Positions 1-14,871 of a stretch of DNA of 14,871 nucleotides are shown here, piece after piece (position 1 is the stretch's first letter; each line of letters begins with the position of its first letter). The notes under the pieces were generated by a model, which saw nothing but the letters and a program-made list of their open reading frames with translations, did not search any database and was not told the origin of the DNA. This DNA comes from Promethearchaeota archaeon (GTDB lineage Archaea > Asgardarchaeota > Lokiarchaeia > Sigyniarchaeales > SOKP01). The translations under genes and the position numbers were made by a program. Where the stretch lies: the NCBI GenBank assembly GCA_030599585.1, contig JAUVNS010000035.1, forward strand, positions 1 through 14,871, given 5' to 3'.

Positions 1-2085
1 AATTGCTGAGACAAGATGGAGCTTAAACAACTTTCCATTAGATAATTCTCCCCATAGTTCGACTTTATCGATAAGCGAGATCGTCTTAGGATGCTCTACT
101 AATCGCAGTAAAAAACGATGTTGTACTGCTACGGGTTGCGCGATGAGTGTATGCTCATAGATCACATCAATGCCGTCAATATCGTGTATGTCCAATAATC
201 CTTCTTCAACATATTCTTCACCGTCAAAAACGCTTAAAATCGGGCATCCTCCGCCTCCACCTCCTCCCATGGTTACAAATACGACTTTTGAGGTGTCTTT
301 GTAATTTCCCCGCGCATCATATGCACGACAATGCAATGTATATGAACCACTGCTCCCAACTGCCCAATTCCATACCCAGATATTACTATTTACTATATGG
401 TACGCATCATTCCAAGATCCTGAACCGACTTTAAATTGAACTAAATCTATTCTATAGTTATCAGTAGCTTCAGCCTCACATGGAATTAGACCAGTAGTAG
501 TAACAGATGATCCAGGAGCAGTAATGCTTATAGTTGGCTCTTCTTCATCGCACGCTCCATAAGCGTTTACTAACCCATATCCGTATTTAGGATCCCACCC
601 TTCGGGATCATAATGAACACTGTTGGGGTTATAAGTAGGACTGGTAGGGTTTGAGTATTCATTTATTTGATCTTTGCTTGTCTCTATAAGCGCTTCTCGC
701 ACTTGAGCAGGAGTATATTCTGGATTTTGAGCCAAGATTAAAGCGCAAACACCTGTAACATAAGGTCCTGAAAAAGAAGTGCCAGGACCTGAATAACCGT
801 ATTCACTTCCATTAATTGTTGTATACCCGTTTGTAATTGCCACAACATCCAATTGAGGACCGTAACATGAGCTCGTACTCCGTATATACCCGTCGATGGA
901 CGGATGGATCCAAACAGCTCCTACAGAAATCACCGATGGGTACCTAGCAGGATATGCAATACCAAATGATTCTGGTATTGCATCATGGTTTCCAGTTGGA
1001 GCAATAACCACAATTCCAAGGTCATGTGCAAGGATACATATATTTCTAAGTAGTAAATCATCAACTTGTATTTGAATGTTAACATATATAACATCCATTT
1101 CGTTACTAATGGCCCACTGAATCCCTTGAATAATTGAGGAAATCGCATCAGGATTATCTTTACGATAAACGCGAACGACATATAAACTGACTTTTGGAGC
1201 GACTCCGATATTTCCCTGTCCATCGTCATTTGCGGCAATTATTCCGCATGCTTTAGTTCCGTGCCATTCGTATTCTTCAGTATCAATAGGATCATCGTCG
1301 TTATATGCTGTATCATATCCTCCCTCATATCTGCCCAAAAATGCCGGATGATTATAATCAATTCCTGTGTCTAGAACGCATAATTTTATACCTTCTCCCG
1401 CTTTAACAGGATCAGAAACATTTGTAGCTCCATCTCTTTCTCCCCATACCATTTCGGCATCAATATCATCAACACGAGAAAGATGATCTCGAGATTCATC
1501 ATCGTAATTAATTTCAACATACATTGCATCTACACTTACATGCCCTTCAAATCCCGGAACATCCTGAATATCCGCTACTAACGCAATTTGTAAATTACTA
1601 GCAACAGTATTCAATTCTGACCAAGAGAATGAGGTCCATGCCGGACCAAATGGATCTTGAACTGTTTGCGCGGTTGACCAAACTTCGTCGTTTCCAAACC
1701 TAAACTTGGTAGAAATTTTTGCCCATCCACTATGTAGTATGCTACAAGAAGCGTAAATATGAACGGTGATTGAATATATGGTAACACCGTAGATACCCAT
1801 ATTGTAAATATCTGTTCCATATTCCTCATTCCCTGAAAGGTAATTCTTTACCCCATCAGGAAGATTAGGAGCTATTACCTCTTCATTGATATTTGAAAAA
1901 TCCCCCCATTCAGTTTGAAAATTCCCCGTTGGTCGAAAGATTTTTGTTGTAGCAGAACTTTTTAAATCTGACTCAATTTCATTCTTCTTTATTCCAATAC
2001 CATCATCAATTCTAAATGGAAGGAATAACATCGCTCCAGAAAGAATTAGGATGGTGATAATGACTATTGGTTGTTTAAATTTCAT
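1..2085 (-). CDS. Secreted S8 (subtilisin-like) serine protease with N-terminal extra domain, Ig-like domain and C-terminal G7-CP domain; 3' end lies beyond the window
   Basis: Hand translation from ATG 2085 stays open for 695 codons to the window edge. SD AGGTGA at 2095-2100. Signal-like N-terminus MKFKQPIVIITILILSGAMLFLP. Catalytic motifs: VLDTGID (D239), HGTKACGIIAA (H275), oxyanion PTGN (N366), GTSFSGPYVTG (S437), followed by KYGYGLVNA. Ig-like segment PTISITAP...GSYTLHCRAYDARGN. Confidence 0.95.
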   Translation of the reverse strand, partial: MKFKQPIVIITILILSGAMLFLPFRIDDGIGIKKNEIESDLKSSATTKIFRPTGNFQTEWGDFSNINEEVIAPNLPDGVKNYLSGNEEYGTDIYNMGIYGVTIYSITVHIYASCSILHSGWAKISTKFRFGNDEVWSTAQTVQDPFGPAWTSFSWSELNTVASNLQIALVADIQDVPGFEGHVSVDAMYVEINYDDESRDHLSRVDDIDAEMVWGERDGATNVSDPVKAGEGIKLCVLDTGIDYNHPAFLGRYEGGYDTAYNDDDPIDTEEYEWHGTKACGIIAANDDGQGNIGVAPKVSLYVVRVYRKDNPDAISSIIQGIQWAISNEMDVIYVNIQIQVDDLLLRNICILAHDLGIVVIAPTGNHDAIPESFGIAYPARYPSVISVGAVWIHPSIDGYIRSTSSCYGPQLDVVAITNGYTTINGSEYGYSGPGTSFSGPYVTGVCALILAQNPEYTPAQVREALIETSKDQINEYSNPTSPTYNPNSVHYDPEGWDPKYGYGLVNAYGACDEEEPTISITAPGSSVTTTGLIPCEAEATDNYRIDLVQFKVGSGSWNDAYHIVNSNIWVWNWAVGSSGSYTLHCRAYDARGNYKDTSKVVFVTMGGGGGGGCPILSVFDGEEYVEEGLLDIHDIDGIDVIYEHTLIAQPVAVQHRFLLRLVEHPKTISLIDKVELWGELSNGKLFKLHLVSAI

Positions 2086-2228
2086 ATTAGATTTTCACCT
2101 TTATTATAGATTTTGTCTTAAAAGATATTCAATTCTATATGAATACATGTTGACATTTAAATATTCATCATTATTTGAGGAAAACTTTAACTAAATCTTT
2201 ACCAAAAGGAAAAATTTTTTTATTTGTT

Positions 2229-2453
2229 TTATCTAAAAATTCGGAAGTATTTGAAGCCCGTATCGACCCCACACACCGCCAACAGCACGAAAGAGAAAAT
2301 TATAACGCCTAACATCTTGTAGCGAAGCCGACTTCCGCCCCATACAGCCAACATAATACCTAGAACGAGCCCTAATATGCCTATAAGCGACCCGAAGGCG
2401 ATGATAAACTCGAAACCACCTAATAAGTCTTCAAAATAGTCGAATACTACCAT
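2229..2453 (-). CDS. Small membrane protein (74 aa, 2 predicted TM helices), function unknown
   Basis: ATG-started ORF with two hydrophobic segments separated by GGSRLRYK and a basic C-terminus. A TATA box lies about 25 nt upstream of the ATG. Confidence 0.8.
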   Translation of the reverse strand: MVVFDYFEDLLGGFEFIIAFGSLIGILGLVLGIMLAVWGGSRLRYKMLGVIIFSFVLLAVCGVDTGFKYFRIFR

Positions 2454-2477
2454 GATAGGTGCTATAGAAGTTATGAG

Positions 2478-2485
2478 TATTTAAA
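2478..2485 (-). promoter_or_regulatory. Putative archaeal TATA box (TTTAAATA) for the 74-aa gene; transcript probably leaderless
   Basis: TTTAAATA on the minus strand ends 25 nt before ATG 2453, and no SD is visible. Confidence 0.5.
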
Positions 2486-2783
2486 AGAAAAATGGTTCTC
2501 AAATCACACTAAAAAAAAATTAGAGAAAATAAGATTTAATAACGTCCTTGTTTTCTTGATATTTATTAATTCAAAAAATCGAAAACTGTGAAAAATTATT
2601 AAACTGAAAGATATTGCGTAATTCTTATACGACGAAGTGAATAGGTTTATATAAGTGCGCAATAATTGATAGTGTAGAGAAGATAAAATTCGCAACTCAA
2701 TACATTGAGCTTACATTCGGTTTACGAAGAGCAATAATGTTATTATAAATTAATAAGTGAAAGATAATTATATAAATAACCTA

Positions 2784-2937
2784 TTGTGGAGGGACAAAAC
2801 TACGACTCCTGTTGCCGCCCTGGATTTTTGTCTTTTGATAGTGTGTACTACACACTAATTTCGCCCTCCTCCCCGTATTATCTTTTCGACCTTCTCATTA
2901 GGTCCTGGTGGCAGGAGTCTCCTTTTCCCCTCGACAA
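2784..2937. other. GC-enriched non-coding fold-back element (candidate structured ncRNA or MITE)
   Basis: Outer arms TTGTGGAGGG (2784-2793) / CCCTCGACAA (2928-2937) match at 9 of 10. Inner stem GACTCCTGTTGCCG (2804-2817) / TGGTGGCAGGAGTC (2906-2919) pairs using G-U. Internal palindrome at 2839-2857. No convincing ORF. Confidence 0.45.
2839..2857. repeat. 19-bp palindrome TAGTGTGTA-C-TACACACTA
   Basis: Perfect 9-bp arms around one central base, read directly. Confidence 0.9.
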
Positions 2938-3114: not shown

Positions 3115-3966
3115 CTAAAAGATAGCTATTATTCCTCGAGCGTTAAAAATATTAAGGTCAGGAATGAATTCGCCAAGAACTAGCTTAAATTGGGAATATA
3201 TTTTAAATCCCAAAGAGAAAAAAATAAAGACATATAGGATAATTAAGAAAATAAAACTATAATAAGATACGATAAACGAATCGATCCCTGAATTGTTATT
3301 AATTAGTTGGTAAGGATCTCCTATTCCAAGGATAGCTCCTAAAAACCAGTATCTTACATCATCAGACAATTCAACAAATATTATTATGCTGAGAGGTACG
3401 TTCAATGTCAATGGCATCTTTTTGTCTTGATGGAGGGCGATTAAAAAGATCATTCCAACTACGACTAACCAAAATGTACCTGAAATTATAATTAGATTAT
3501 TTTGGATCAAAGAGGGAGAACTAATAAAACTCACATAACCACTTGTAAGTGAGATGAATACATCCACTATTTGACAGTTAAAGCTAAGTGCAGCTATTAG
3601 GTGACCAATCTCATGAAAGAAAAATCTTAAATTGCCAATAAAATACCCTAATAATATATATGATGCTATGAAGAGAACTGCTAACATAAATTTCCCAAAC
3701 ATGATATCCTCATATTTTAATATTTTTTTATACTCATCCTCTTCCCAGAGATTCATTTTTTGATTCGTTCGATAAAACATACGTTTCTCGAAATGAAATG
3801 AAAGGGTATCAGAGAGATCCCAAATCATAAAATATATTATGGCTAATGCTGATAAAGCAAATAAAACTTTTATCAAGGTAAATATCCCAATATACCTAAA
3901 AGTGAATGCAAGGATGAAAATTAATATCCCTACACAAGCCCCAAGAAAATATTTTTTTAACTCCAT
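3115..3966 (-). CDS. M50-like (site-2 / M50B-type) intramembrane zinc metallopeptidase
   Basis: Multiple TM segments. HExxH in FFHEIGHLIAAL, followed by a beta-loop ending SGYVSF, then IIISGT, and a downstream GD motif (GIGDP) that could supply the third ligand. Confidence 0.8.
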   Translation of the reverse strand: MELKKYFLGACVGILIFILAFTFRYIGIFTLIKVLFALSALAIIYFMIWDLSDTLSFHFEKRMFYRTNQKMNLWEEDEYKKILKYEDIMFGKFMLAVLFIASYILLGYFIGNLRFFFHEIGHLIAALSFNCQIVDVFISLTSGYVSFISSPSLIQNNLIIISGTFWLVVVGMIFLIALHQDKKMPLTLNVPLSIIIFVELSDDVRYWFLGAILGIGDPYQLINNNSGIDSFIVSYYSFIFLIILYVFIFFSLGFKIYSQFKLVLGEFIPDLNIFNARGIIAIF

Positions 3967-4205
3967 CGACTTATCACTTTATGGTTTTTATCTTTATCTA
4001 ATTTAATCAGATCAAATTGTTTGCTTGAACTTGGATTAATACTTTCAGTAATGTGATATTAAATGAAAACGACTTTATAAACTCTTTGGGTTATTTGCCA
4101 AGCATAACAAAGCAAATCATCACAAAAAAAAACCAAAACATAAAAATTGGCTTCAAATTTTGACGAAATTTAACTAAATTAAAATTAAAATTTGATTTAC
4201 ACTAT

Positions 4206-6896: not shown

Positions 6897-7272
6897 AATT
6901 CTATTATTGCGAATGGAATATTCTTAATTGGGTGAGGATTCTATGAGTATCAGGATTCCGATCTCAATCTCTCATTCGAGTATTTCCACATATCAAGGAT
7001 ATTTGTAAATTGCGTCCCACACATTGTTGCTGAGCGAATTAATACATCTGGTTCTACTCCTTGTTGTTCAGAATGATAATGAAGTCGCCGATAATCTCTT
7101 TGATTTAGCTCAATTATATATTCAATTTTTTTTTTAGGATGTCTTGGGATAAAAGTCGAAAATTCATTAATCCACCAAATAACATTAACTTTACACATAA
7201 AACAACCCCATTCAATTGCTGCTTTTATGAATTCATCTCGTGATTTCTTGTTGTGAATCGCTTGTTCAGACA
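6897..7272 (-). repeat. Left copy of a 376-bp inverted repeat (partner 13394-13769)
   Basis: Ungapped hand alignment of the reverse complement to 13394-13769 gives about 43 mismatches in 376 (about 89% identity). The repeat includes 53 nt past the stop codon. Confidence 0.95.
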
Positions 7273-7318
7273 CCATTTCTAACTCCTCTTCAGTAAAACG
7301 TAAATAAACTATGTACAT
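6950..7318 (-). CDS. Tandem ribbon-helix-helix (CopG/Arc-like) DNA-binding protein
   Basis: Two strand-helix-helix units: YIVYLRFTEEELEMVSEQAIHNKKSRDEFIKAAIE and YIIELNQRDYRRLHYHSEQQGVEPDVLIRSAT. A second copy lies at 13394-13716. Confidence 0.65.
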   Translation of the reverse strand: MYIVYLRFTEEELEMVSEQAIHNKKSRDEFIKAAIEWGCFMCKVNVIWWINEFSTFIPRHPKKKIEYIIELNQRDYRRLHYHSEQQGVEPDVLIRSATMCGTQFTNILDMWKYSNERLRSES

Positions 7319-7471: not shown

Positions 7472-7789
7472 CCACGGTTATTAAAAAATAGATTTGAGTT
7501 AAAAAAATTAAAAAAAATCTTTTTTTCTCAATTTTTCCTTTTTCTATTACCCTCATTTTCGTTGTAAATTAATAAAAAATCAAAGCTAAAGAGAAATTAC
7601 TTTTATATTATTACTTTTGGATTCTTTTTATGATAAAACATTCACTAAATTGTATTTATTCTTTTGGAACCACGAATGTGGGTTCTTCTCCTTGGGAAAT
7701 TAGGATTGTTTGAAAAAAGAAATAACGAATAAAAAATTTTAAGATTTATTTTATTTTTAAATGAATAGAAGTCATTTTGTTTAGTTCTA

Positions 7790-9577
7790 TTAATCGTTTA
7801 AGATACGACTAAAATAATCTCTTAGACTCTTCAGTTGAATATTTCGCTCCTCATTTGAGTATCCTATCATTCTTAAATTCTCGTTTTTCACGATTATGTC
7901 CTTTAACATTTCAAATAAAACAGGTAATTTACTTATTTCATTTAAATCACTATAATTTATTTCATAATCCGAAAGAAACTCATGTTCAACTAATTGAAAA
8001 TATTCAGAAATCTCTCTCTTTAACCTTTTAAATTTAGCAAAGAATTTCGGATCTTGTTCAACAAGAATTTTTCTCTCTAAGGGATTGTTAATTATATTTT
8101 GGTCGAAAATTTTTTCCTTATTAAGCTGCTCTTCTTCATTCATTGCATTATTCTCCTTAAGCCATAAATCATTATAACGGTTTTGAGCCATAAGAAATGC
8201 TTGGGTTTTTTTTTTCATTTCTAAATCTTCAATCTTAATGAAATCGTCTGTGGATTCATAATTAAGCCAATTTTGCTTTATATCCTTAAGTGAAGAAATA
8301 ATTGCCGAGCGAATCTCTTCCTTTGTTATTAGATTACCATCATTATAAGTTATTATTATTGTATGCAATGGCCAACCTTCTGGGCGACTATATGTCCTTG
8401 CTGTTTTAATCTCAATATTAGAATTAATTTTAGACATTATCAATTTAAAGTCGTCTTCGTCCCACATAAAAAAGGCGTTTTCTAATTTGGGAAGAATTAC
8501 GACTTCATGAATTAATATTTCACCTTTTTTTTGAATTAATTTAAAACTTCCATATAAAAGATCGACACGTTGATTTAAATTCAATTCGTGAAACACATTT
8601 ACAAAGAATACAATATCCGCTTTTTCTACAGCTTCAATATTATCTGAAGGGGGATTATATTTTAATTTGTTAATGGATTTACAGCGACTTTCAATTTCAG
8701 GCCATTTTCCCTTATCTATTTCAATAGGTATATAATTGAATTTTGATACAATCCCACTATTATTAATAGCTTTAACCAAGTCCCCATATCCGGCTCCGAC
8801 ATCGATTATTTTAATTTCTTCTTTTGCGGAAGAATATCTTCCTAAAATAAAAGTTGCTAATTGTTCGATTTGAGGATCACCATCTCTTCGTTTAATTGCA
8901 TCAGGAGCATTAAAACACTCAAGTAAATAAGCCATAACATCATCTGATTTTTTTTTGTCTTCAAACTCTTTTCTATATGTGGTAGATTGCTTTTTAAAGC
9001 TATTTAAAGTTTTATGAAATTTCAAAGAAGATTGATTACTAATTATTCTTTTAATATAAATTGAAAAAATAAACTGATTCATTTTAGTTTGATGATGAAA
9101 ATTATTCTTCTTTATACTATCAAAACCTGAAATAGAAAGATTTATTCCTGAATAATTAATATTTATTAAGGCATTTTCTGTTTTTAATCCCTCCCATTTT
9201 ATCTTTCTAGTAATATTTGGGTTAACTTTTAAAACATAATTATCAATATTTTTAAGATATGTGATTTCCATCACTTGTTTTTTAGAAAATTCTTTTGTTG
9301 GCTCTAAATATAACGAGTAACCATTTTTCAAAGATTCAATATATAGTTTAGGGTCATAATCGGTGTTTTTAAATTTAAAATATTTAAAATCTTCGATATG
9401 ATTTAATAAATCATTGATTATATGAAGAGATTTATGCTCATTTATATTAACCTTAGAAAGTTTTACTGGTCTTTTTAGGTTTCTAACGAAAAGCCTAATT
9501 TGCCCTTTAATTTCTAATTCATTCTCAGAATTTATGCTAAAATTTTCACTTATCATTAATTCCTCAAGCACTAACAT
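7790..9577 (-). CDS. Class I SAM-dependent methyltransferase domain protein with large uncharacterised N- and C-terminal extensions
   Basis: Motif I IIDVGAGYGDL, acidic motif II YIPIEID, motif IV ADIVFFVNVFHEL, and KKGEILIHE. The start may instead be ATG 9556, which is preceded by GAGG. Confidence 0.88.
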   Translation of the reverse strand: MLVLEELMISENFSINSENELEIKGQIRLFVRNLKRPVKLSKVNINEHKSLHIINDLLNHIEDFKYFKFKNTDYDPKLYIESLKNGYSLYLEPTKEFSKKQVMEITYLKNIDNYVLKVNPNITRKIKWEGLKTENALININYSGINLSISGFDSIKKNNFHHQTKMNQFIFSIYIKRIISNQSSLKFHKTLNSFKKQSTTYRKEFEDKKKSDDVMAYLLECFNAPDAIKRRDGDPQIEQLATFILGRYSSAKEEIKIIDVGAGYGDLVKAINNSGIVSKFNYIPIEIDKGKWPEIESRCKSINKLKYNPPSDNIEAVEKADIVFFVNVFHELNLNQRVDLLYGSFKLIQKKGEILIHEVVILPKLENAFFMWDEDDFKLIMSKINSNIEIKTARTYSRPEGWPLHTIIITYNDGNLITKEEIRSAIISSLKDIKQNWLNYESTDDFIKIEDLEMKKKTQAFLMAQNRYNDLWLKENNAMNEEEQLNKEKIFDQNIINNPLERKILVEQDPKFFAKFKRLKREISEYFQLVEHEFLSDYEINYSDLNEISKLPVLFEMLKDIIVKNENLRMIGYSNEERNIQLKSLRDYFSRILND

Positions 9578-9615
9578 GAGAAGATTTCATCTATCCTGTT
9601 ATTAATTAGAAATAA

Positions 9616-10740
9616 TTAAGTCTTATTTGAACTTGATCCTCCTCCTCGTTTTGTTGTTTTTCTTCCTCTACCTTTGTTTACACTTGAAGTTAGCTTATTT
9701 TTATATTCTGTGACACCATTTACCATATTTTCTAATTTTTTCTTCACATCTTTACGTAATAACCCTCGTAATCCAATATTAGGTGTAAATATTATTTTTT
9801 TTTTATTCTGGATTAGAAATGGGTTATTTGAAACAAACTTGTCTATAGTTTGTGCAATTATTTGTGGGTCTTCATTTTTTAAATCCGGTTCAAAAGCATT
9901 TATTATACCAATACTATAGTTCTTATAGAAATGATATGAATTAATATAATTAATTTGCTTACTTTTAGCAGAATAATCTCTCAAGCCAGAGATCATAAAT
10001 GCGCATATGTCAATACTATCTCCTAGAATGTTAAGGTCAGCAACATCTTTATTTAATATTGCAGGGGTATAATAAATCCAATTAAATTTTTTTTCGGGAT
10101 ACTCATCATTTATATTATCTATTATTTCTTTAATTAACTTCAAGTCTGTTTTTATCTGAATATTTTTGTAGGCTTCAAAATCATCCAGAACGGGATGATC
10201 TATTTGAATATATCTCCATTCTAAGACTTTTTCTACTGTTTTAGAATATTCAATCAATGATTTTATTGCTGGTATTATTATATGATCCTTAAGAAGAGTC
10301 AAGAATTCCTCATATTCATCCTCCCAATTTAATGGAATAGAGAACCTACTATATAAAGACAATGGTGAGGGAATTACAAATTTTAATTTAGGTTTTGTAG
10401 GATAATTTTTCTTTTCTAAATATTTTTCAGCAAATTCCCATCCTCGTTTAAAACTTCTAACAAAATTAAATTCTTCTGGTTCTACAAATTTTACAATATT
10501 TTCAGTTTCTTTTGGAATCACAATTCGACTATGAAAATTAGGGCATATAATCTCATAAAAATTTAAATATACTTCACTGTTATTATTTGATAAAAATGGT
10601 AAATAATCATCTTGTCGATTCATTAAATAAACTTGTCCGTCAGTTATAATATCTAATTTTAGATCTAATTGAAATTTTATAGCATCTTCAGGCGATCTAA
10701 ATGGAAATGATCCTATAGTAGAAGTTAAAATCTCAATCAT
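9616..10740 (-). CDS. Divergent cobalamin-independent methionine synthase (MetE catalytic-barrel)-fold protein lacking the zinc ligands
   Basis: Landmarks in MetE order: TSTIGSFP, AIKFQLDLKLDIITDGQ, IPSPLSL, YIQIDHP, PQIIAQTI, FTPNIGLRGLLRKDVKKKLENMV. ATGA overlap with the upstream gene. Confidence 0.8.
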   Translation of the reverse strand: MIEILTSTIGSFPFRSPEDAIKFQLDLKLDIITDGQVYLMNRQDDYLPFLSNNNSEVYLNFYEIICPNFHSRIVIPKETENIVKFVEPEEFNFVRSFKRGWEFAEKYLEKKNYPTKPKLKFVIPSPLSLYSRFSIPLNWEDEYEEFLTLLKDHIIIPAIKSLIEYSKTVEKVLEWRYIQIDHPVLDDFEAYKNIQIKTDLKLIKEIIDNINDEYPEKKFNWIYYTPAILNKDVADLNILGDSIDICAFMISGLRDYSAKSKQINYINSYHFYKNYSIGIINAFEPDLKNEDPQIIAQTIDKFVSNNPFLIQNKKKIIFTPNIGLRGLLRKDVKKKLENMVNGVTEYKNKLTSSVNKGRGRKTTKRGGGSSSNKT

Positions 10741-11678
10741 GGATTTTTACCTGAAATAATATCTGTTTTTTGATCTAAAACATCAATAAATGACTCAAAA
10801 TCTAATATTCCAGTATTTTGTAAATTATCATACTCGAGCCAAAATGGTAGAAATTGGAGGATTTTCGATTTTTCCTCATTTGGATAATCCCTATCTCCAT
10901 TTGTACGTTTTTCATTATTTTTATCAATGTTAAAAAAATTTATCCAATATAGAAAATTTAATAAGTCAATTATTTTTATTGGAATATCTACATCCCATAT
11001 TACTTTTCTCATATCGTCCTCTATTATTGGGACAATATATAATGTATAAATTTCATCCTTTTGCCAGTATCGATTATATCTTATGTGTTCTTTTATAATG
11101 TGTGCTAGATTATCCTCAAAACTCTTAGCAGCCTGATAAGTGCTTATATGTAATAAATATCTTGAACCTGAGCGCAAGAGAATATCTTGATTACTATTTC
11201 GAACTTGATAACCTATCAATGAGCAATAAGCACATGAAAATTTTAGGAATAATTTTAGAATTTTAGTTGAATAATTCCCATATTTTTTTTGTTTTGTTCT
11301 TGAATAATAGATCTTCTTGACTATATCTTCAATTTCTAAAATTTGATTGTTTAAATTTATTTTTGGGGGAATTTTATACCATTCAAAATACTTGTCATAA
11401 AAATCTGATTGTTCGGCTACTTGCTCGAAGATTCCTTCATTAAGTATATAGTAGGTTTTTTCAGCTTCTACATCGAATTCAGTATTGACTAAATTATACT
11501 TTTCAAAAGTACGCAATAAGTTAAGAGGCTTGACACCAGTATAATCTTCGATTTTTTCTTCTGTTAATATATCAGGGAAAATTTTTGAATTATATAAAAG
11601 GAGTAAAATTGTTTTTGCGTCATTATTAGAGATTGCTCCGTTTATGGTTGACATTTCTTTTTTTGATAAATTTACCAT
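10737..11678 (-). CDS. N-terminal winged-HTH protein with a C-terminal degenerate PD-(D/E)XK-like domain
   Basis: N-terminal pattern AISNNDAKTILLLLY...LTEEKIEDYTGVK...FEKYNLV...KTYYILNE. C-terminal pattern LIGYQV...DILL...LLHIST...EHI...YTLYIVPII. SD GGGTGA upstream. The ORF is secure; the domain calls are tentative. Confidence 0.6.
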   Translation of the reverse strand: MVNLSKKEMSTINGAISNNDAKTILLLLYNSKIFPDILTEEKIEDYTGVKPLNLLRTFEKYNLVNTEFDVEAEKTYYILNEGIFEQVAEQSDFYDKYFEWYKIPPKINLNNQILEIEDIVKKIYYSRTKQKKYGNYSTKILKLFLKFSCAYCSLIGYQVRNSNQDILLRSGSRYLLHISTYQAAKSFEDNLAHIIKEHIRYNRYWQKDEIYTLYIVPIIEDDMRKVIWDVDIPIKIIDLLNFLYWINFFNIDKNNEKRTNGDRDYPNEEKSKILQFLPFWLEYDNLQNTGILDFESFIDVLDQKTDIISGKNP

Positions 11679-11695
11679 TTTTTTTCACCCTTATT

Positions 11696-12964
11696 TTACG
11701 TACCAGATCCAGGATCATTAATATATTTGATTTGATCTTCTGTCAATTTATCAATTTCAATCCCCATTGAATCTAATTTTAGACGTCCAACTTCATTGTC
11801 AATTTCTTCAGGGACTTTAATCATACTAGGGCTTAGAAAATCTTTATTTTTTACAATATATTCAGACATAAGGCATTGTAGGGAGAATGACATGTCCATG
11901 ACTTCGCTCGGATGTCCTTCAGAAAGAATAAGATTTGCTAATCTACCCTCTGCTAAGAGATAAACTCGTTTTCCACTGGGAAAGACTAATTCTTCAACAT
12001 TACTACGAATTGGATTGATCTTTTTTGCGAATTTATATAATTCTTCAGTAGGAATTTCGACATTAAAATGTCCTAAATTACCTAATATAACTCCATCTTT
12101 GAGAGATTCAAATATTTCTTTCGTAGGTTGAATGACGTCTTTACAACCCGTTGCAGTTAGAATTATATCAGCATTAGGTAATGCTTTAGCAATAGGCACT
12201 ACTTGAAAACCAGCAAATCTTGCTTGAAGCGCTTTTATCGGATCAATCTCAGTTACAATTACAATTGCACCCAAACCTCTTGCCTTTAATGCCATACCAG
12301 AAGAACAATGACCATATCCTGCAATTATAACAGTTTTGCCTGCGAATAAGACATGCATACCATATATCGCAGAAACAATTCCTTGCCCCGTGCCTAATTC
12401 ATTATCAAATTGATTCTTACAGCGTGCATCATTAACAGGGAATAAAGGAACCTTCAAATGCCCCGTTTTTTCCATTGCTTCGAATCTTTTCACCCCTGTT
12501 GTAGTTTCTTCTTGACAACCTATTATTGTTCCATTAGTTATAAGTTCTGGAAATTCTTTATGAGCTGTATAGATCAAGTCAGCACCATCATCAATTAAAA
12601 TATTAGGTTTAAATTTTAGACATTCCCGAATACACCAATAAAATTCATCATTATTACTTCCATACCACGCGAAAACATTAATCCCTTCCTTTACAAGAGC
12701 AGCAGCAACATCATCTTGAGTTGATAATGGATTACTTCCACATAAAATGACTTTTGCTCCTCCAGCTTTTAGGGTTCGTGCAAGTATCCCCGTCTCTTTT
12801 GTTACATGAAGGCAACCTGCAATAATTATACTCTCTAAAGGTTTTTCCTTCTTAAACCTTTCTCGAATGACTTTTCCAGTCACAGGCATTTTATTTTCAG
12901 CGAAATATAGCGCTTCTTTTCCTTTTTTAAACAAATCTTCTTTTGCAATCTTAAACTTTACCAA
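11696..12964 (-). CDS. ahcY: Adenosylhomocysteinase (SAH hydrolase)
   Basis: GCLHVTKET, GSNPLSTQDDVAAAL, DDGADL, EETTTGV, VNDARCKNQFDN, GHFNVEI, EGRLANL, GHPSEVMDMSF. The TTG start is supported by the conserved N-terminal helix before MP. Confidence 0.97.
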   Translation of the reverse strand: MVKFKIAKEDLFKKGKEALYFAENKMPVTGKVIRERFKKEKPLESIIIAGCLHVTKETGILARTLKAGGAKVILCGSNPLSTQDDVAAALVKEGINVFAWYGSNNDEFYWCIRECLKFKPNILIDDGADLIYTAHKEFPELITNGTIIGCQEETTTGVKRFEAMEKTGHLKVPLFPVNDARCKNQFDNELGTGQGIVSAIYGMHVLFAGKTVIIAGYGHCSSGMALKARGLGAIVIVTEIDPIKALQARFAGFQVVPIAKALPNADIILTATGCKDVIQPTKEIFESLKDGVILGNLGHFNVEIPTEELYKFAKKINPIRSNVEELVFPSGKRVYLLAEGRLANLILSEGHPSEVMDMSFSLQCLMSEYIVKNKDFLSPSMIKVPEEIDNEVGRLKLDSMGIEIDKLTEDQIKYINDPGSGT

Positions 12965-13019
12965 AAATTATCCCTTTCATAAAGTATTTATCTTTATAAA
13001 TATAATAAGGACATTTAAG

Positions 13020-13027: not shown

Positions 13028-13100
13028 AATAGTGCATTTAACGACAAATTTTTCAAATCATTAAACATTTGGTTGTGACACTTCAGCAGAATGTAGTTAG

Positions 13101-13400
13101 TGGTACATTCAACCGAAGGATACATATTTAAGGTACCTTTTAGATATTTTTGATCAACGGGTTACACTTACCTTTAAAGATCAAATTTATAACGAAATCT
13201 TGTATTACATGACAGACTTAATCGTTGAACATTATGCCCCAATTCCAGGGAAAGGGATAGAACTTCTCAGGAGAATTTATAAGGTGTTATCCTCTCAAGG
13301 AGAATTAATTCATAAAAACATTGTTAAAATATGTCAATCTCAGTTTGATAAGAACTACATGGTGGATGAATTCACAGCGTTTTATACAATAGCTGTTTGA
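13101..13400 (+). pseudogene. Fragment resembling the AAA+ lid region of Cdc6/Orc1-like proteins
   Basis: The frame is open from 13101 (after a TAG): LLDIFDQRVTLTFKDQIYNEILYYMTDLIVEHYAPIPGKGIELLRRIY, which echoes the L.DIL..R...AF......E.L..IAD.......AR.AI.LLR lid pattern. No Walker A/B region is present. Confidence 0.45.
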
Positions 13401-13716
13401 ACAAGCCATTTATAACAACAAATCACTAGATGAATTCATAAAAGCAGCAATTAAGTGGGTTTTTTTTATATGTAAAGCTAAAATTATTTGGTGGATTAAT
13501 GAATTTTCACCTTTTATCCCAAAACATCCTAAAAAAATTATTGATTATATGATTGAGCTATCTCAAAGAGATTATCGGCGACTCTATTATCATTTTGAAC
13601 ATCAAGGAGTAGAACCATGTGTATTAATTCGTTCAGCAACAATGTGTTCGATGCAATTTACAAATATCCTTGATATGTGGAATTACTCGAATGAGCGATT
13701 AAGATCGGAATCCTAA
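13393..13716 (+). pseudogene. 5'-truncated paralog of the tandem-RHH gene 6950-7318
   Basis: Open frame LFEQAIYNNKSLDEFIKAAIKW...MWNYSNERLRSES* is preceded by an in-frame TAG (13390-13392). It lacks the first ~15 codons, including the start and the first beta-strand. Most differences from the left copy are non-synonymous. Confidence 0.85.
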
Positions 13717-13769
13717 TACTCGTAGAAACCTCACCCAGTTAAGAACATTCCATTCGTAAAAATAGAATT
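13394..13769 (+). repeat. Right copy of the 376-bp inverted repeat (partner 6897-7272)
   Basis: Direct ungapped alignment, about 89% identity. Confidence 0.95.
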
Positions 13770-14370: not shown

Positions 14371-14871
14371 ATGAAAGAATTTATATTTTCTTTTAATTAC
14401 TCGGGCTATATTTCTACGGGAGTTGAAAAAATTGATGAAAAAACACTTACTTTGAATGATTTATTTACCATAAATAAAAAACGAGTAATTGATTTTTGTA
14501 AGGAGATGACCAAAAGGAAAATTAATTTAAAATGGAAATGTATGGGCAGAATAGATCAAATTGATGAGGAAATGATTGATAAAATGCAGAAATCTGGTTG
14601 TATCCAAATAAGTTTTGGAATTGAATCCTTAAATCAAAAATCTTTAGACCGAATTAATAAGGAAATAAATATTCATAAAATTAAAAAGGCTATTAAAGCT
14701 TGTCATGATGTTGGTATTTTAGTAACTTTATATTTTATTTTGGGTTTTCCTTGGGAAACAAAAAAGGATTTTAAAGGATTTTTAAATTCATTAAAAGAAT
14801 TAGACGAATGTAATTTAGTATTTGGAATGTTAGTACCCTATCCAGGAACAGAATTTTATGAAAATCAAGAA
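14371..14871 (+). CDS. C-terminal half of a B12-binding-family (class B type) radical SAM protein; N-terminally truncated and running off the window
   Basis: Open for 167 codons from ATG 14371: NDLFTINKKRVIDFC...WKCMGRIDQIDEEMIDKMQKSGCIQISFGIESLNQKSLDRINK...FILGFPWET...VPYPGTEFY. No CxxxCxxC lies upstream in this frame. Confidence 0.85.
   Translation, partial: MKEFIFSFNYSGYISTGVEKIDEKTLTLNDLFTINKKRVIDFCKEMTKRKINLKWKCMGRIDQIDEEMIDKMQKSGCIQISFGIESLNQKSLDRINKEINIHKIKKAIKACHDVGILVTLYFILGFPWETKKDFKGFLNSLKELDECNLVFGMLVPYPGTEFYENQE

What the first reader, a model, noticed from the sequence alone, without database searches (positions are those of the whole stretch)
7790..12964. Candidate new system: ahcY, wHTH/nuclease-like protein, Zn-less MetE-fold protein and large methyltransferase in one operon
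Seen: four co-oriented genes behind one TATA box, spaced 17 nt, a 4-nt ATGA overlap, and 38 nt apart. Known: methyltransferases make SAH, AhcY converts SAH to homocysteine and relieves product inhibition, and MetE converts homocysteine to Met, so three genes map to consecutive methyl-cycle steps. However, only AhcY looks like a conventional enzyme. The MetE-fold protein has lost its catalytic ligands and is translationally coupled to a putative DNA-binding protein, and the MTase has about 200 aa of unknown N-terminal domain. Inference: not a housekeeping pathway but a repurposed methyl-cycle sensing, signalling or defence module. For example, the pseudoenzyme could sense Hcy/Met/SAM status, which viral SAM lyases are known to deplete, and relay it to the wHTH partner while AhcY keeps the MTase active. 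I know of no described system with this layout.
Basis: partly seen in the sequence, partly recalled or inferred. Interest (0 to 1): 0.8.

Follow-up and report, generated by a model that had tools for sequence, protein, structure and literature searches.

The report
Extra AhcY beside zinc-less MetE-like pair
A strain-specific four-gene cassette in an Asgard-type archaeon joins a second copy of the SAH-clearing enzyme AhcY, a conserved pair made of a DNA-binding protein and a methionine-synthase look-alike that has lost its zinc site, and a modular methyltransferase; only the pair recurs elsewhere, so it is an interesting but thinly sampled candidate methyl-cycle sensor, not a demonstrated new system.

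Summary
Four minus-strand genes (12964-7790) follow a TATA-like box with gaps of 17, -4 (ATGA) and 38 nt. Gene 1 is an intact AhcY, and it is an extra copy: the housekeeping ahcY sits on another contig in a synteny conserved across the genus. Gene 2 has an ArsR-like winged helix; its C-terminal half is unresolved. Gene 3 has a MetE/Mes fold (Z 25). It keeps the homocysteine-binding Ser/Gln/Asp triad, but no His, Cys or Glu is conserved at the zinc-ligand positions. Gene 4 is a class I methyltransferase core with a private 200-aa N-terminal domain.

Genes 2 and 3 recur as an adjacent pair on one other metagenome contig at about 40% identity. A more distant zinc-less relative is followed 14 nt downstream by an MTA/SAH-deaminase-type gene. 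However, the four-gene layout is unique. The methyltransferase family occurs at eight other loci without the other three genes. Genes 2 and 3 were found in none of 399 other genomes of the phylum. No known defence family matched.

My best reading (0.38) is a two-protein homocysteine/SAH-sensing regulator that controls an accessory AhcY and methyltransferase, analogous to bacterial SahR. A chance neighbourhood within a rearranged island remains a serious rival. The scan had noted this stretch before, on the same DNA only.

The parts
12993..13000 (-). TATA-like box TTTATAAA, about 32 nt upstream of the TTG start of ahcY2
   Evidence: Read directly. It is a consensus resemblance only; no transcript data.
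11696..12964 (-). ahcY2: an extra, divergent but intact adenosylhomocysteinase (SAH or S-inosylhomocysteine hydrolase), 422 aa, TTG start
   Evidence: TIGR00936 505 bits and NF004005 512 bits. It is 77% identical to the housekeeping copy on C40. It lies inside the genus clade (100/100) on a long branch, 0.4 against a median of 0.07. It keeps 178 of the 188 columns that are invariant in 28 orthologues. PDB relatives include both SAH hydrolases and the S-inosyl-L-homocysteine hydrolase 7r3a.
10737..11678 (-). Gene 2 (P0002, 313 aa): N-terminal ArsR/SmtB-like winged helix (aa ~3-95) plus an unresolved C-terminal domain
   Evidence: VIA-wide: the top 50 matches are almost all winged-helix proteins, mostly transcription factors; best is 6j05_B at Z 11.4. 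One homologue exists, P0014, at 38% identity. No Pfam, NCBIfam or PDB sequence match. Atlas look-alikes are FokI/Mrr/AlwI at 0.82-0.88, a lead only.
9616..10740 (-). Gene 3 (P0003, 374 aa): zinc-less MetE/Mes-fold barrel with a non-conserved Arg/Gly-rich tail
   Evidence: Fold evidence. NF003317 gives E 1e-8, below its cut-off. Only 5 family members plus one true synthase were found among 1.84 billion representatives. No conserved zinc ligand; Ser11, Gln36 and Asp181 are kept (residue roles from PMC539065 and PMC7857596).
8981..9577 (-). Gene 4 (P0004), N-terminal domain, aa 1-199, no known family
   Evidence: No Pfam match and no Atlas hit. There is a weak collinear similarity to the gene upstream of the pair in L007 (pairwise E 0.009; z 4.3, 0 of 300 shuffles reach it).
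8153..8980 (-). Gene 4, class I SAM-methyltransferase core, aa 200-475
   Evidence: Alignment A4 of 10 homologues at 40-68% identity, with motif I D[IV]GAGxGDL. The profile hits methyltransferase 6c5b at E 3e-4. Homologues give weak Methyltransf_31/12/23 hits.
7790..8152 (-). Gene 4, C-terminal extension, aa 476-595, shared only with P0005 and P0006
   Evidence: BLASTP ranges.
6897..7281 (-). Left arm of a 385-nt inverted repeat, holding an intact 122-aa ORF (6950-7318)
   Evidence: the repeat finder I1: 88% complementary arms 6103 nt apart. Alignment. No other copy in the genome.
13385..13769 (+). Right arm of the inverted repeat; a degraded copy of the 122-aa gene (CGA replaced by an in-frame TAG, 5' part diverged)
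   Evidence: tblastn gives 78% over aa 18-122.
14371..14871 (+). 5'-truncated radical SAM gene fragment to the right of the island: a rearrangement scar
   Evidence: Pfam Radical_SAM matches profile positions 77-165 only. The fragment aligns to aa 296-436 of a 485-codon open frame on C34, with no trace of the N-terminal part upstream.

Best explanation
This is an accessory, strain-specific cassette in an Asgard-type archaeal genome. Its conserved core is a translationally coupled pair. One partner is an ArsR-like winged-helix protein (gene 2). The other is a MetE/Mes-fold barrel (gene 3) that keeps the pocket residues holding the amino-acid end of homocysteine, but has lost the zinc site needed to activate the thiol.

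I propose that gene 3 is a ligand-binding pseudoenzyme. It would read homocysteine, methionine, or the homocysteine moiety of SAH/SIH, and pass that state to the DNA-binding partner. The partner would then control the cassette. The cassette also carries a dedicated extra AhcY, which removes the SAH (or SIH) made by the fourth gene, a modular class I methyltransferase whose private N-terminal domain chooses the target.

Shown: gene order and spacing, the folds, loss of the zinc ligands, retention of the triad, the extra-copy status of ahcY, and recurrence of the pair.

Inferred: ligand binding, physical pairing, regulation, co-transcription, and the methyltransferase substrate.
For: - Spacing is tight: 17, -4 and 38 nt.
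- The gene 2 + gene 3 pair recurs 3 nt apart in L007 at 38-40% identity.
- In every other locus of the zinc-less family (L012, L013, L055) the barrel gene directly follows an upstream partner gene, with gaps of 1, -8 and 2 nt.
- Gene 3 has a MetE/Mes fold at Z about 25. It keeps Ser11, Gln36 and Asp181. These equal the Ser/Glu/Asp that bind homocysteine in MetE (PMC539065), with Gln as in archaeal MesA/MesC (PMC7857596). No His, Cys or Glu is conserved at the zinc positions.
- Gene 2 has an ArsR-type wHTH.
- ahcY here is a second copy outside the conserved ahcY synteny, and G000 is the only one of 41 genomes with two copies. It keeps 178 of 188 invariant columns.
- A distant family member sits 14 nt upstream of an MTA/SAH-deaminase-type gene (best PDB match 4f0r at E 1e-87).
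- There is a precedent: SahR, an ArsR-family SAH-responsive regulator with ahcY in its core regulon, and MetR, which senses homocysteine (PMC4239095).
- There is weak similarity between the gene 4 N-terminal domain and the gene upstream of the pair in L007.
Against: - The four-gene layout is seen once only.
- The gene 2 + gene 3 pair is seen only twice. Both genes were absent from 399 other genomes of the phylum and from genome contigs.
- In L007 the pair has no AhcY and no methyltransferase core beside it.
- Methyltransferase homologues sit in eight other contexts without any of the other three genes.
- The partners of the more distant zinc-less barrels show no detectable similarity to gene 2.
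- The C-terminal two thirds of gene 2 are unexplained. If that part is an active nuclease, the regulator reading fails.
- Retention of three pocket residues is inferred from a sequence alignment, not from a bound ligand.
- The cassette lies in a rearranged stretch (inverted repeat, truncated radical SAM gene, paralogous segments), where chance adjacency is easier.
Confidence: 0.38

Rival explanations
1. Chance neighbourhood. Only genes 2 and 3 form a functional unit of unknown role. The extra ahcY and the methyltransferase were brought next to it by duplication and rearrangement in a variable island, and they share at most read-through transcription.
For: - The segment is bracketed by 385-nt inverted copies of a small gene, one of them degraded.
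- It abuts a 5'-truncated radical SAM gene.
- The contig carries several diverged duplicates of genes found elsewhere in G000: S8 protease at 73% to C6, an M50B-like gene at 74% to C23, and ahcY at 77% to C40.
- Methyltransferase homologues live in eight unrelated contexts.
- L007 lacks both AhcY and the methyltransferase core.
- The PfkB kinase gene beside L055 has no counterpart in the related locus L013. This shows that single adjacencies here can be accidental.
Against: - Gaps of 17 and 38 nt leave no room for separate promoters.
- The ahcY duplicate has been kept intact under constraint, with 178 of 188 invariant columns.
- A second, independent zinc-less barrel also lies beside an SAH-disposal enzyme gene.
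- There is weak similarity between the gene 4 N-terminal domain and the neighbour of the pair in L007.
Confidence: 0.3
2. Conflict or defence module. The methyltransferase and a nuclease-like gene 2 protein act against invading DNA or proteins. The zinc-less barrel monitors methyl-cycle metabolites that viruses disturb, and AhcY keeps the methyltransferase running.
For: - The methyltransferase family is patchy, found in 4 of 400 genomes of the phylum.
- It is modular, fused to LRR arrays (P0005, P0007, L018) or to an AAA_21/AAA_15 ATPase (P0013).
- Its neighbours include TIR-LRR, DrmE_C + PLD, Hypoth_Ymh, HNH, GIY-YIG and PDDEXK genes.
- Genes 2-4 are 27% GC against 32.6% for the genome.
- Atlas look-alikes of gene 2 are wHTH-restriction endonuclease clusters.
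Against: - No PADLOC or PHROG family matched any of the genes at a meaningful score.
- The methyltransferase lacks a conserved DNA-methyltransferase motif IV.
- No PD-(D/E)xK motif can be recognised among residues conserved between P0002 and P0014.
- The Atlas scores are under the tool's 0.9 mark.
- No relatives were found in viral contigs.
- Association with a defence island is shown only for the methyltransferase homologues, not for the pair.
Confidence: 0.15
3. Small-molecule pathway. Gene 3 is an active, metal-free enzyme of the MetE/UROD superfamily acting on a homocysteine-derived or related substrate. The methyltransferase modifies the product and AhcY recycles SAH, as in biosynthetic clusters that carry their own SAM-cycle genes. 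Gene 2 is the pathway regulator.
For: - UROD, with the same fold and no metal, scores nearly as well as MetE (Z 21.7 against 25).
- The best PDB hit of the methyltransferase profile is a small-molecule O-methyltransferase-type chain, 6c5b, and homologues give weak Methyltransf_2 hits.
- L012 couples the barrel with an amidohydrolase.
Against: - No other biosynthetic genes lie in the cassette.
- The family has only five members worldwide, with different partners each time.
- No residues conserved family-wide suggest a new catalytic centre. The invariant columns of A5 are mostly structural Gly/Pro plus the substrate-binding positions.
Confidence: 0.15

Closest known systems
Core methionine synthases MesA/MesC (archaeal single-barrel MetE relatives; Price et al. 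2021, PMC7857596) and the catalytic barrel of MetE (PMC539065)
   Same: The (beta/alpha)8 fold is the same (Z about 25 over ~290 residues). The nearest Atlas clusters are archaeal Meth_synt_2. The homocysteine-binding Ser, Gln (as in MesA/MesC) and Asp are kept.
   Different: No conserved His, Cys or Glu at the four zinc-ligand positions in any of the five family members. Scores fall below the Pfam and NCBIfam cut-offs. The gene is always coupled to an upstream partner of unknown family. The genome has its own Mes-type candidate with intact IHLH / CEY / PDCG motifs on C9. Price et al. already noted zinc-less MesB-like and MesC proteins that may have other functions.
SahR (ArsR-family SAH-responsive regulator of SAM-cycle genes in Proteobacteria) and MetR (homocysteine-sensing); PMC4239095
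   Same: An ArsR-type winged helix is encoded next to ahcY, in a setting where a metabolite of the methyl cycle is the plausible signal.
   Different: No sequence relationship was shown. Here the presumed sensor is a separate MetE-fold protein, not part of the regulator polypeptide. This is an archaeon, and the target would be an accessory cassette rather than the housekeeping regulon. All of this is inference.
Adenosylhomocysteinase / S-inosyl-L-homocysteine hydrolase of archaea
   Same: Gene 1 passes the TIGR00936 cut-off and keeps 178 of 188 columns invariant in its orthologues.
   Different: It is a second copy on a long branch, outside the ahcY synteny conserved in the genus. Specificity for SAH or SIH cannot be told from sequence, because the 7r3a SIH hydrolase scores nearly as well as SAH hydrolases.
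wHTH-restriction endonuclease fusions (FokI_cleav_dom / Mrr_cat / RE_AlwI proteins)
   Same: An N-terminal winged helix is followed by a ~200-aa domain. Language-model features place gene 2 nearest such clusters.
   Different: There is no HMM or PDB sequence match. No catalytic motif is recognisable among the conserved residues. The structure model of that half is unusable.

Membership tests
Adenosylhomocysteinase (TIGR00936 / PF05221+PF00670) | Full-length match above the curated cut-off | tested here: met
   504.9 bits against a cut-off of 497.6; NF004005 512.5 against 275; both Pfam domains match.
Adenosylhomocysteinase (TIGR00936 / PF05221+PF00670) | Conservation of the residues invariant in orthologues (active site and NAD site) | tested here: met
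   178 of 188 columns invariant in 28 orthologues are kept; the 10 changes are mostly conservative.
Adenosylhomocysteinase (TIGR00936 / PF05221+PF00670) | Being the genome's housekeeping orthologue in the conserved synteny | tested here: not met
   The C40 copy has the conserved flanking genes. The window copy has none of them and sits on a long branch.
Cobalamin-independent / core methionine synthase (MetE, MesA-D; PF01717) | MetE-type (beta/alpha)8 barrel | tested here: met
   Foldseek E 3e-11 to 1t7l; VIA Z 25.3 to 3rpd and about 25 to the MetE C-terminal barrel; Atlas TM 0.71.
Cobalamin-independent / core methionine synthase (MetE, MesA-D; PF01717) | Four zinc ligands (His, Cys/His, Glu/Asp, Cys) | tested here: not met
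   In A5 the true synthase P0020 has VHICCG, SIEDAH and PDCG. P0003 and its four relatives have no conserved His, Cys or Glu there; for example PNIG, PNSG or PRGG in place of PDCG.
Cobalamin-independent / core methionine synthase (MetE, MesA-D; PF01717) | Homocysteine-binding Ser / Glu-or-Gln / Asp | tested here: met
   Ser11 (IGSFP) and Gln36 (TDGQ) are in all five members. Asp181 (IQIDHP) is in four of five. This rests on alignment only.
Cobalamin-independent / core methionine synthase (MetE, MesA-D; PF01717) | Score above the family cut-off | tested here: not met
   PF01717 15 bits against 21; NF003317 34.8 against 406.
Class I SAM-dependent methyltransferase | Motif I GxGxG, an acidic residue after strand 2, and a Rossmann-type core recognised by family models | tested here: inconclusive
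   D[IV]GAGxGDL and YIPIE are conserved in 10 homologues. The Pfam hits of P0004 itself are below cut-off (15 bits against 30). A distant homologue in L019 passes Methyltransf_31 (34.4 against 27). The profile hits 6c5b at E 3e-4. No structure model was made.
DNA methyltransferase of a restriction-modification system | Conserved (D/N/S)PP(Y/F/W) or PCQ catalytic motif | tested here: not met
   P0004 has NPPS, but the column is not conserved in the family (SSPS, VEPK, IEPK).
ArsR/SmtB winged-helix regulators | ArsR-type wHTH fold | tested here: met
   Z 11.4, rmsd 2.4 and 86 of 90 residues aligned to 6j05_B. The top 50 are almost all winged-helix proteins, mostly transcription factors. The model is only fair (pLDDT about 70 over aa 1-90).
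ArsR/SmtB winged-helix regulators | Sequence match to HTH family models | tested here: not met
   No Pfam or NCBIfam HTH hit at E up to 1.
PD-(D/E)xK nucleases (FokI cleavage domain, Mrr_cat, AlwI) | Family HMM match and catalytic D...(D/E)xK residues | tested here: inconclusive
   No HMM or PDB sequence hit. Atlas feature scores are 0.82-0.88 with 130-150 shared features, below the tool's marks. With only two sequences no motif can be called. The model of this half is unusable.
Known anti-phage defence systems (PADLOC-DB) | Match of any component to a defence model | tested here: not met
   Only chance-level hits (E 0.0025-0.012, 13-15 bits).

The most novel reading that the evidence does not exclude
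The zinc-less MetE-fold barrel and its coupled partner are a new kind of two-protein switch that reads the homocysteine/SAH state of the cell. In this archaeon it arms or tunes a targeted methyltransferase supported by its own AhcY. This could be a guard against viral interference with the methyl cycle, or a eukaryote-like signalling methylation module in an Asgard lineage (relatives of the methyltransferase are fused to LRR arrays).
Probability: 0.12. Interest if true: 0.8.

Novelty: new variant of a known kind. Interest (0 to 1): 0.45.

Why it matters
If gene 3 really binds homocysteine or SAH without turning it over, it would be a clean example of a central-metabolism enzyme converted into a sensor. 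It would also be a first handle on how an Asgard archaeon regulates or exploits its methyl cycle. The family is small (five members among 1.84 billion representatives), so a few binding assays could settle its function. If the cassette is a chance neighbourhood, what remains is a new zinc-less subfamily of the Mes/MetE superfamily and a patchy, modular methyltransferase family fused to LRR and ATPase domains. That would be useful annotation but not a new system.

Tried and rejected
- Complex prediction on gene 3 + gene 2 gave no verdict (score 0.01). It counts neither way.
- Profiles of the gene 3 pair (A2) and the gene 2 pair (A3) gave no PDB sequence hit.
- The word-index search found no homologue of gene 3 and one of gene 2.
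- Genome-contig scans with A2 and A3 found nothing. The metagenome-contig scan gave only two 24%-identical barrels, which I did not examine.
- Viral-contig scans with A4 and A5 found nothing.
- PADLOC and PHROGs gave nothing usable.
- I tested whether the upstream partners of the distant barrels (L012 452 aa; L013/L055 about 420 aa) are related to gene 2. BLAST, shuffles and hhalign were all negative.
- I tested whether the radical SAM fragment in the window is related to the radical SAM gene beside the methyltransferase homologue in L006. It is not.
- I considered the PfkB nucleoside-kinase-like gene upstream of L055 as a third methyl-cycle neighbour. I dropped it because the related locus L013 has an unrelated, opposite-strand gene there.
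- I considered that the contig comes from a co-binned relative, which would make this the sole ahcY of another organism. This is unlikely. The ahcY synteny is conserved across the genus and partly the order, yet absent here, and bases 1-141 of the contig equal the end of the 61-kb contig C52. It is not excluded, because estimated contamination is 8.9%.

Full report
**What is there.** The window is a whole 14,871-bp contig (C16) of a 4.85-Mb, 52-contig genome (32.6% GC, 100% complete, 8.9% estimated contamination). The genome encodes four actin-family proteins, the best at 442 bits. None of the archaeal control genomes matches that family, so this is an Asgard-type archaeon.

Four minus-strand ORFs occupy 12964-7790. 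After the ahcY stop come 17 nt with a GGGTGA, then ATG. Genes 2 and 3 overlap by ATGA. A 38-nt gap precedes gene 4. TTTATAAA lies about 32 nt upstream of the TTG start. That start aligns with the ATG of the paralogue.

**Gene 1** is a bona fide AhcY (TIGR00936 505 bits against 498), but it is not the housekeeping copy.
- A second ahcY on C40 is 77% identical.
- All 36 relatives with a hit have one copy; only G000 has two.
- The two genes flanking the C40 copy lie beside ahcY in nearly every genus relative. None of the window's neighbours does.
- In a maximum-likelihood tree the window copy falls inside the genus clade (100/100), on a branch of 0.4 against a median of 0.07.
- It keeps 178 of the 188 columns invariant in 28 orthologues, so it is a constrained enzyme.
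- PDB relatives include SAH hydrolases and the archaeal S-inosyl-L-homocysteine hydrolase at similar scores, so its substrate is open.

**Gene 3.** Sequence models see only a weak MetE-like C-terminus (PF01717 15 bits; NF003317 E 1e-8). An exhaustive HMMER search of 1.84 billion representatives returned six proteins. These were itself, P0016 (40% identical), three distant relatives (P0017-P0019), and one true core synthase, P0020.

An AF2 model on this alignment (pLDDT 77.6, pTM 0.81) matches MetE best:
- Foldseek E 3e-11.
- VIA Z 25.3 to the single-barrel synthase 3rpd and about 25 to the catalytic barrel of MetE, against 21.7 for UROD.
- The nearest Atlas clusters are all Meth_synt_2.

MetE binds zinc through His, Cys, Glu and Cys. 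It holds homocysteine through a Ser, a Glu and an Asp (PMC539065). Archaeal MesA/MesC use Gln for the Glu (PMC7857596). In alignment A5 the true synthase shows VHICCG, SIEDAH and PDCG. The five family members have no conserved His, Cys or Glu at those places, yet they keep Ser11, Gln36 and, in four of five, Asp181.

So the 'zinc-less MetE fold' is confirmed, with the addition that the amino-acid-binding part of the pocket looks preserved. The genome also has its own Mes-type candidate on C9 with IHLH, CEY and PDCG motifs.

**Gene 2.** It has no family match. The AF2 model from two sequences is poor overall (pLDDT 42) but fair for aa 1-90. That part matches ArsR/SmtB repressors (Z 11.4), and the top 50 matches are almost all winged-helix proteins, mostly transcription factors. 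The C-terminal 200 aa are unresolved. Atlas features point to FokI/Mrr/AlwI clusters, but below the tool's confidence marks.

**Gene 4.** Homologues share aa 200-475, a class I methyltransferase core with D[IV]GAGxGDL. Only two share the C-terminal 120 aa, and none shares the first 200. The family is patchy, present in 4 of 400 genomes of the phylum, all from one family. It is modular: fused to LRR arrays, to an AAA_21/15 ATPase, or free-standing.

**Is it a system?**
- *The pair recurs.* In L007 (24.6% GC), a 38%-identical gene 2 homologue is followed 3 nt later by a 40%-identical gene 3 homologue.
- *The neighbours in L007 differ.* The gene upstream is not AhcY. It shows a weak collinear similarity to the gene 4 N-terminal domain (E 0.009; z 4.3). 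The gene downstream converges.
- *The distant barrels are also coupled.* Each follows an upstream gene directly. In L012 the partner is a 452-aa protein, and the barrel is followed 14 nt later by an amidohydrolase whose best solved relative is an MTA/SAH deaminase (E 1e-87). In L013 and L055 the barrel ends a conserved operon: membrane protein, ParA-like ATPase, 420-aa protein, barrel.
- *A methyl-cycle theme appears twice.* Two independent loci place a zinc-less barrel next to an SAH-disposal enzyme. SAH deaminase and an AhcY-type hydrolase are, from my own knowledge of the field, consecutive steps of an archaeal SAH route. I did not check that in a paper here.
- *The rest does not recur.* None of eight methyltransferase loci has an AhcY, gene 2 or gene 3 homologue nearby. 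Genes 2 and 3 were found in none of 399 other genomes of the phylum. The four-gene order is unique.

**Setting.** The cassette is bracketed by 385-nt inverted copies (88%) of a 122-aa gene, and the right copy is broken. Beyond it lies a 5'-truncated radical SAM gene. The contig carries diverged duplicates of genes found elsewhere in the genome, and its first 141 nt equal the end of C52. Genes 2-4 are 27% GC. This is a rearranged accessory island.

**Verdict.** The most economical mechanism is a two-protein metabolite-responsive regulator, made of an ArsR-type DNA binder plus a pseudoenzyme sensor for homocysteine or SAH. It would sit with an accessory AhcY and methyltransferase, functionally analogous to SahR or MetR (PMC4239095). 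I give it 0.38. Chance adjacency of AhcY and the methyltransferase to the pair gets 0.30, a defence module 0.15, and an active metal-free enzyme pathway 0.15. No known defence family matched.

Noticed in passing
window 13063-13137: This 75-nt stretch is 96% identical to the AT-rich 5' part of a ~160-200-nt unit repeated in G000. There are three diverged tandem units on C21:276928-277662, and copies on C20, C34, C32 and C39. The units continue into a GC-rich part that the window lacks. No tRNA or Rfam match. It may be a promoter plus small-RNA gene family.
   Followed up: partly
window 2797-2925: The GC-rich fold-back noted by the first stage is a multi-copy element. Copies of ~125 nt at 83-90% identity lie on C10, C9 (twice), C35, C39 and C23, and a looser one on C32. 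It may be a MITE-like or structured-RNA repeat.
   Followed up: no
window 7511-7596: This stretch downstream of the methyltransferase gene resembles (82-88%) sequences on C20:290930 and C49:3992. There they lie just upstream of an ATG-initiated gene, so it is a shared promoter or leader-like element.
   Followed up: no
window 1-2493 and 3118-4008: Bases 1-141 are identical to the end of C52, an assembly overlap. The S8 protease plus a 74-aa ORF are collinear with C6:1-2476 (78-88% nt; 73% and 97% aa). The M50B-like gene is 74% identical to one on C23 and 58% to one on C38. The contig is a mosaic of diverged duplicates.
   Followed up: partly
window 14371-14871: A radical SAM ORF that matches only the C-terminal part of the family and aa 296-436 of a 485-codon open frame on C34. 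No N-terminal B12-binding or CxxxCxxC part is detectable upstream, so it is a truncated gene at the island border.
   Followed up: yes
L013:797-4948 and L055:833-4992: A conserved four-gene operon on ~40% GC metagenome contigs: a 264-aa membrane protein, a 356-aa ParA/MinD-like ATPase (GGKGGVGKT), a ~420-aa protein of unknown family, and a zinc-less MetE-like barrel. The first three products are 35%, 50% and 34% identical between the loci. This is a second, different setting for the zinc-less family.
   Followed up: partly
window 9619-9675: The Arg/Gly-rich tail of gene 3 (KGRGRKTTKRGGG...) is absent from its closest homologue P0016 and from the distant relatives. It is also unstructured in the model (pLDDT below 50 from aa 359). 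It is not a family feature.
   Followed up: yes
G000 C9 (L059:1339-2391): A 350-aa Mes-type core methionine synthase candidate with His-x-His, Glu and Cys zinc motifs. This is the pattern Price et al. describe for MesC. PF01717 misses it at E 0.001.
   Followed up: partly
L008, L018, L052 (methyltransferase homologues): The methyltransferase core is fused to long LRR arrays (950-1042 aa proteins), once next to a TIR-LRR gene. It is also fused to an AAA_21/AAA_15 ATPase that sits beside a second such ATPase gene. This is a modular family that may deserve its own study.
   Followed up: partly
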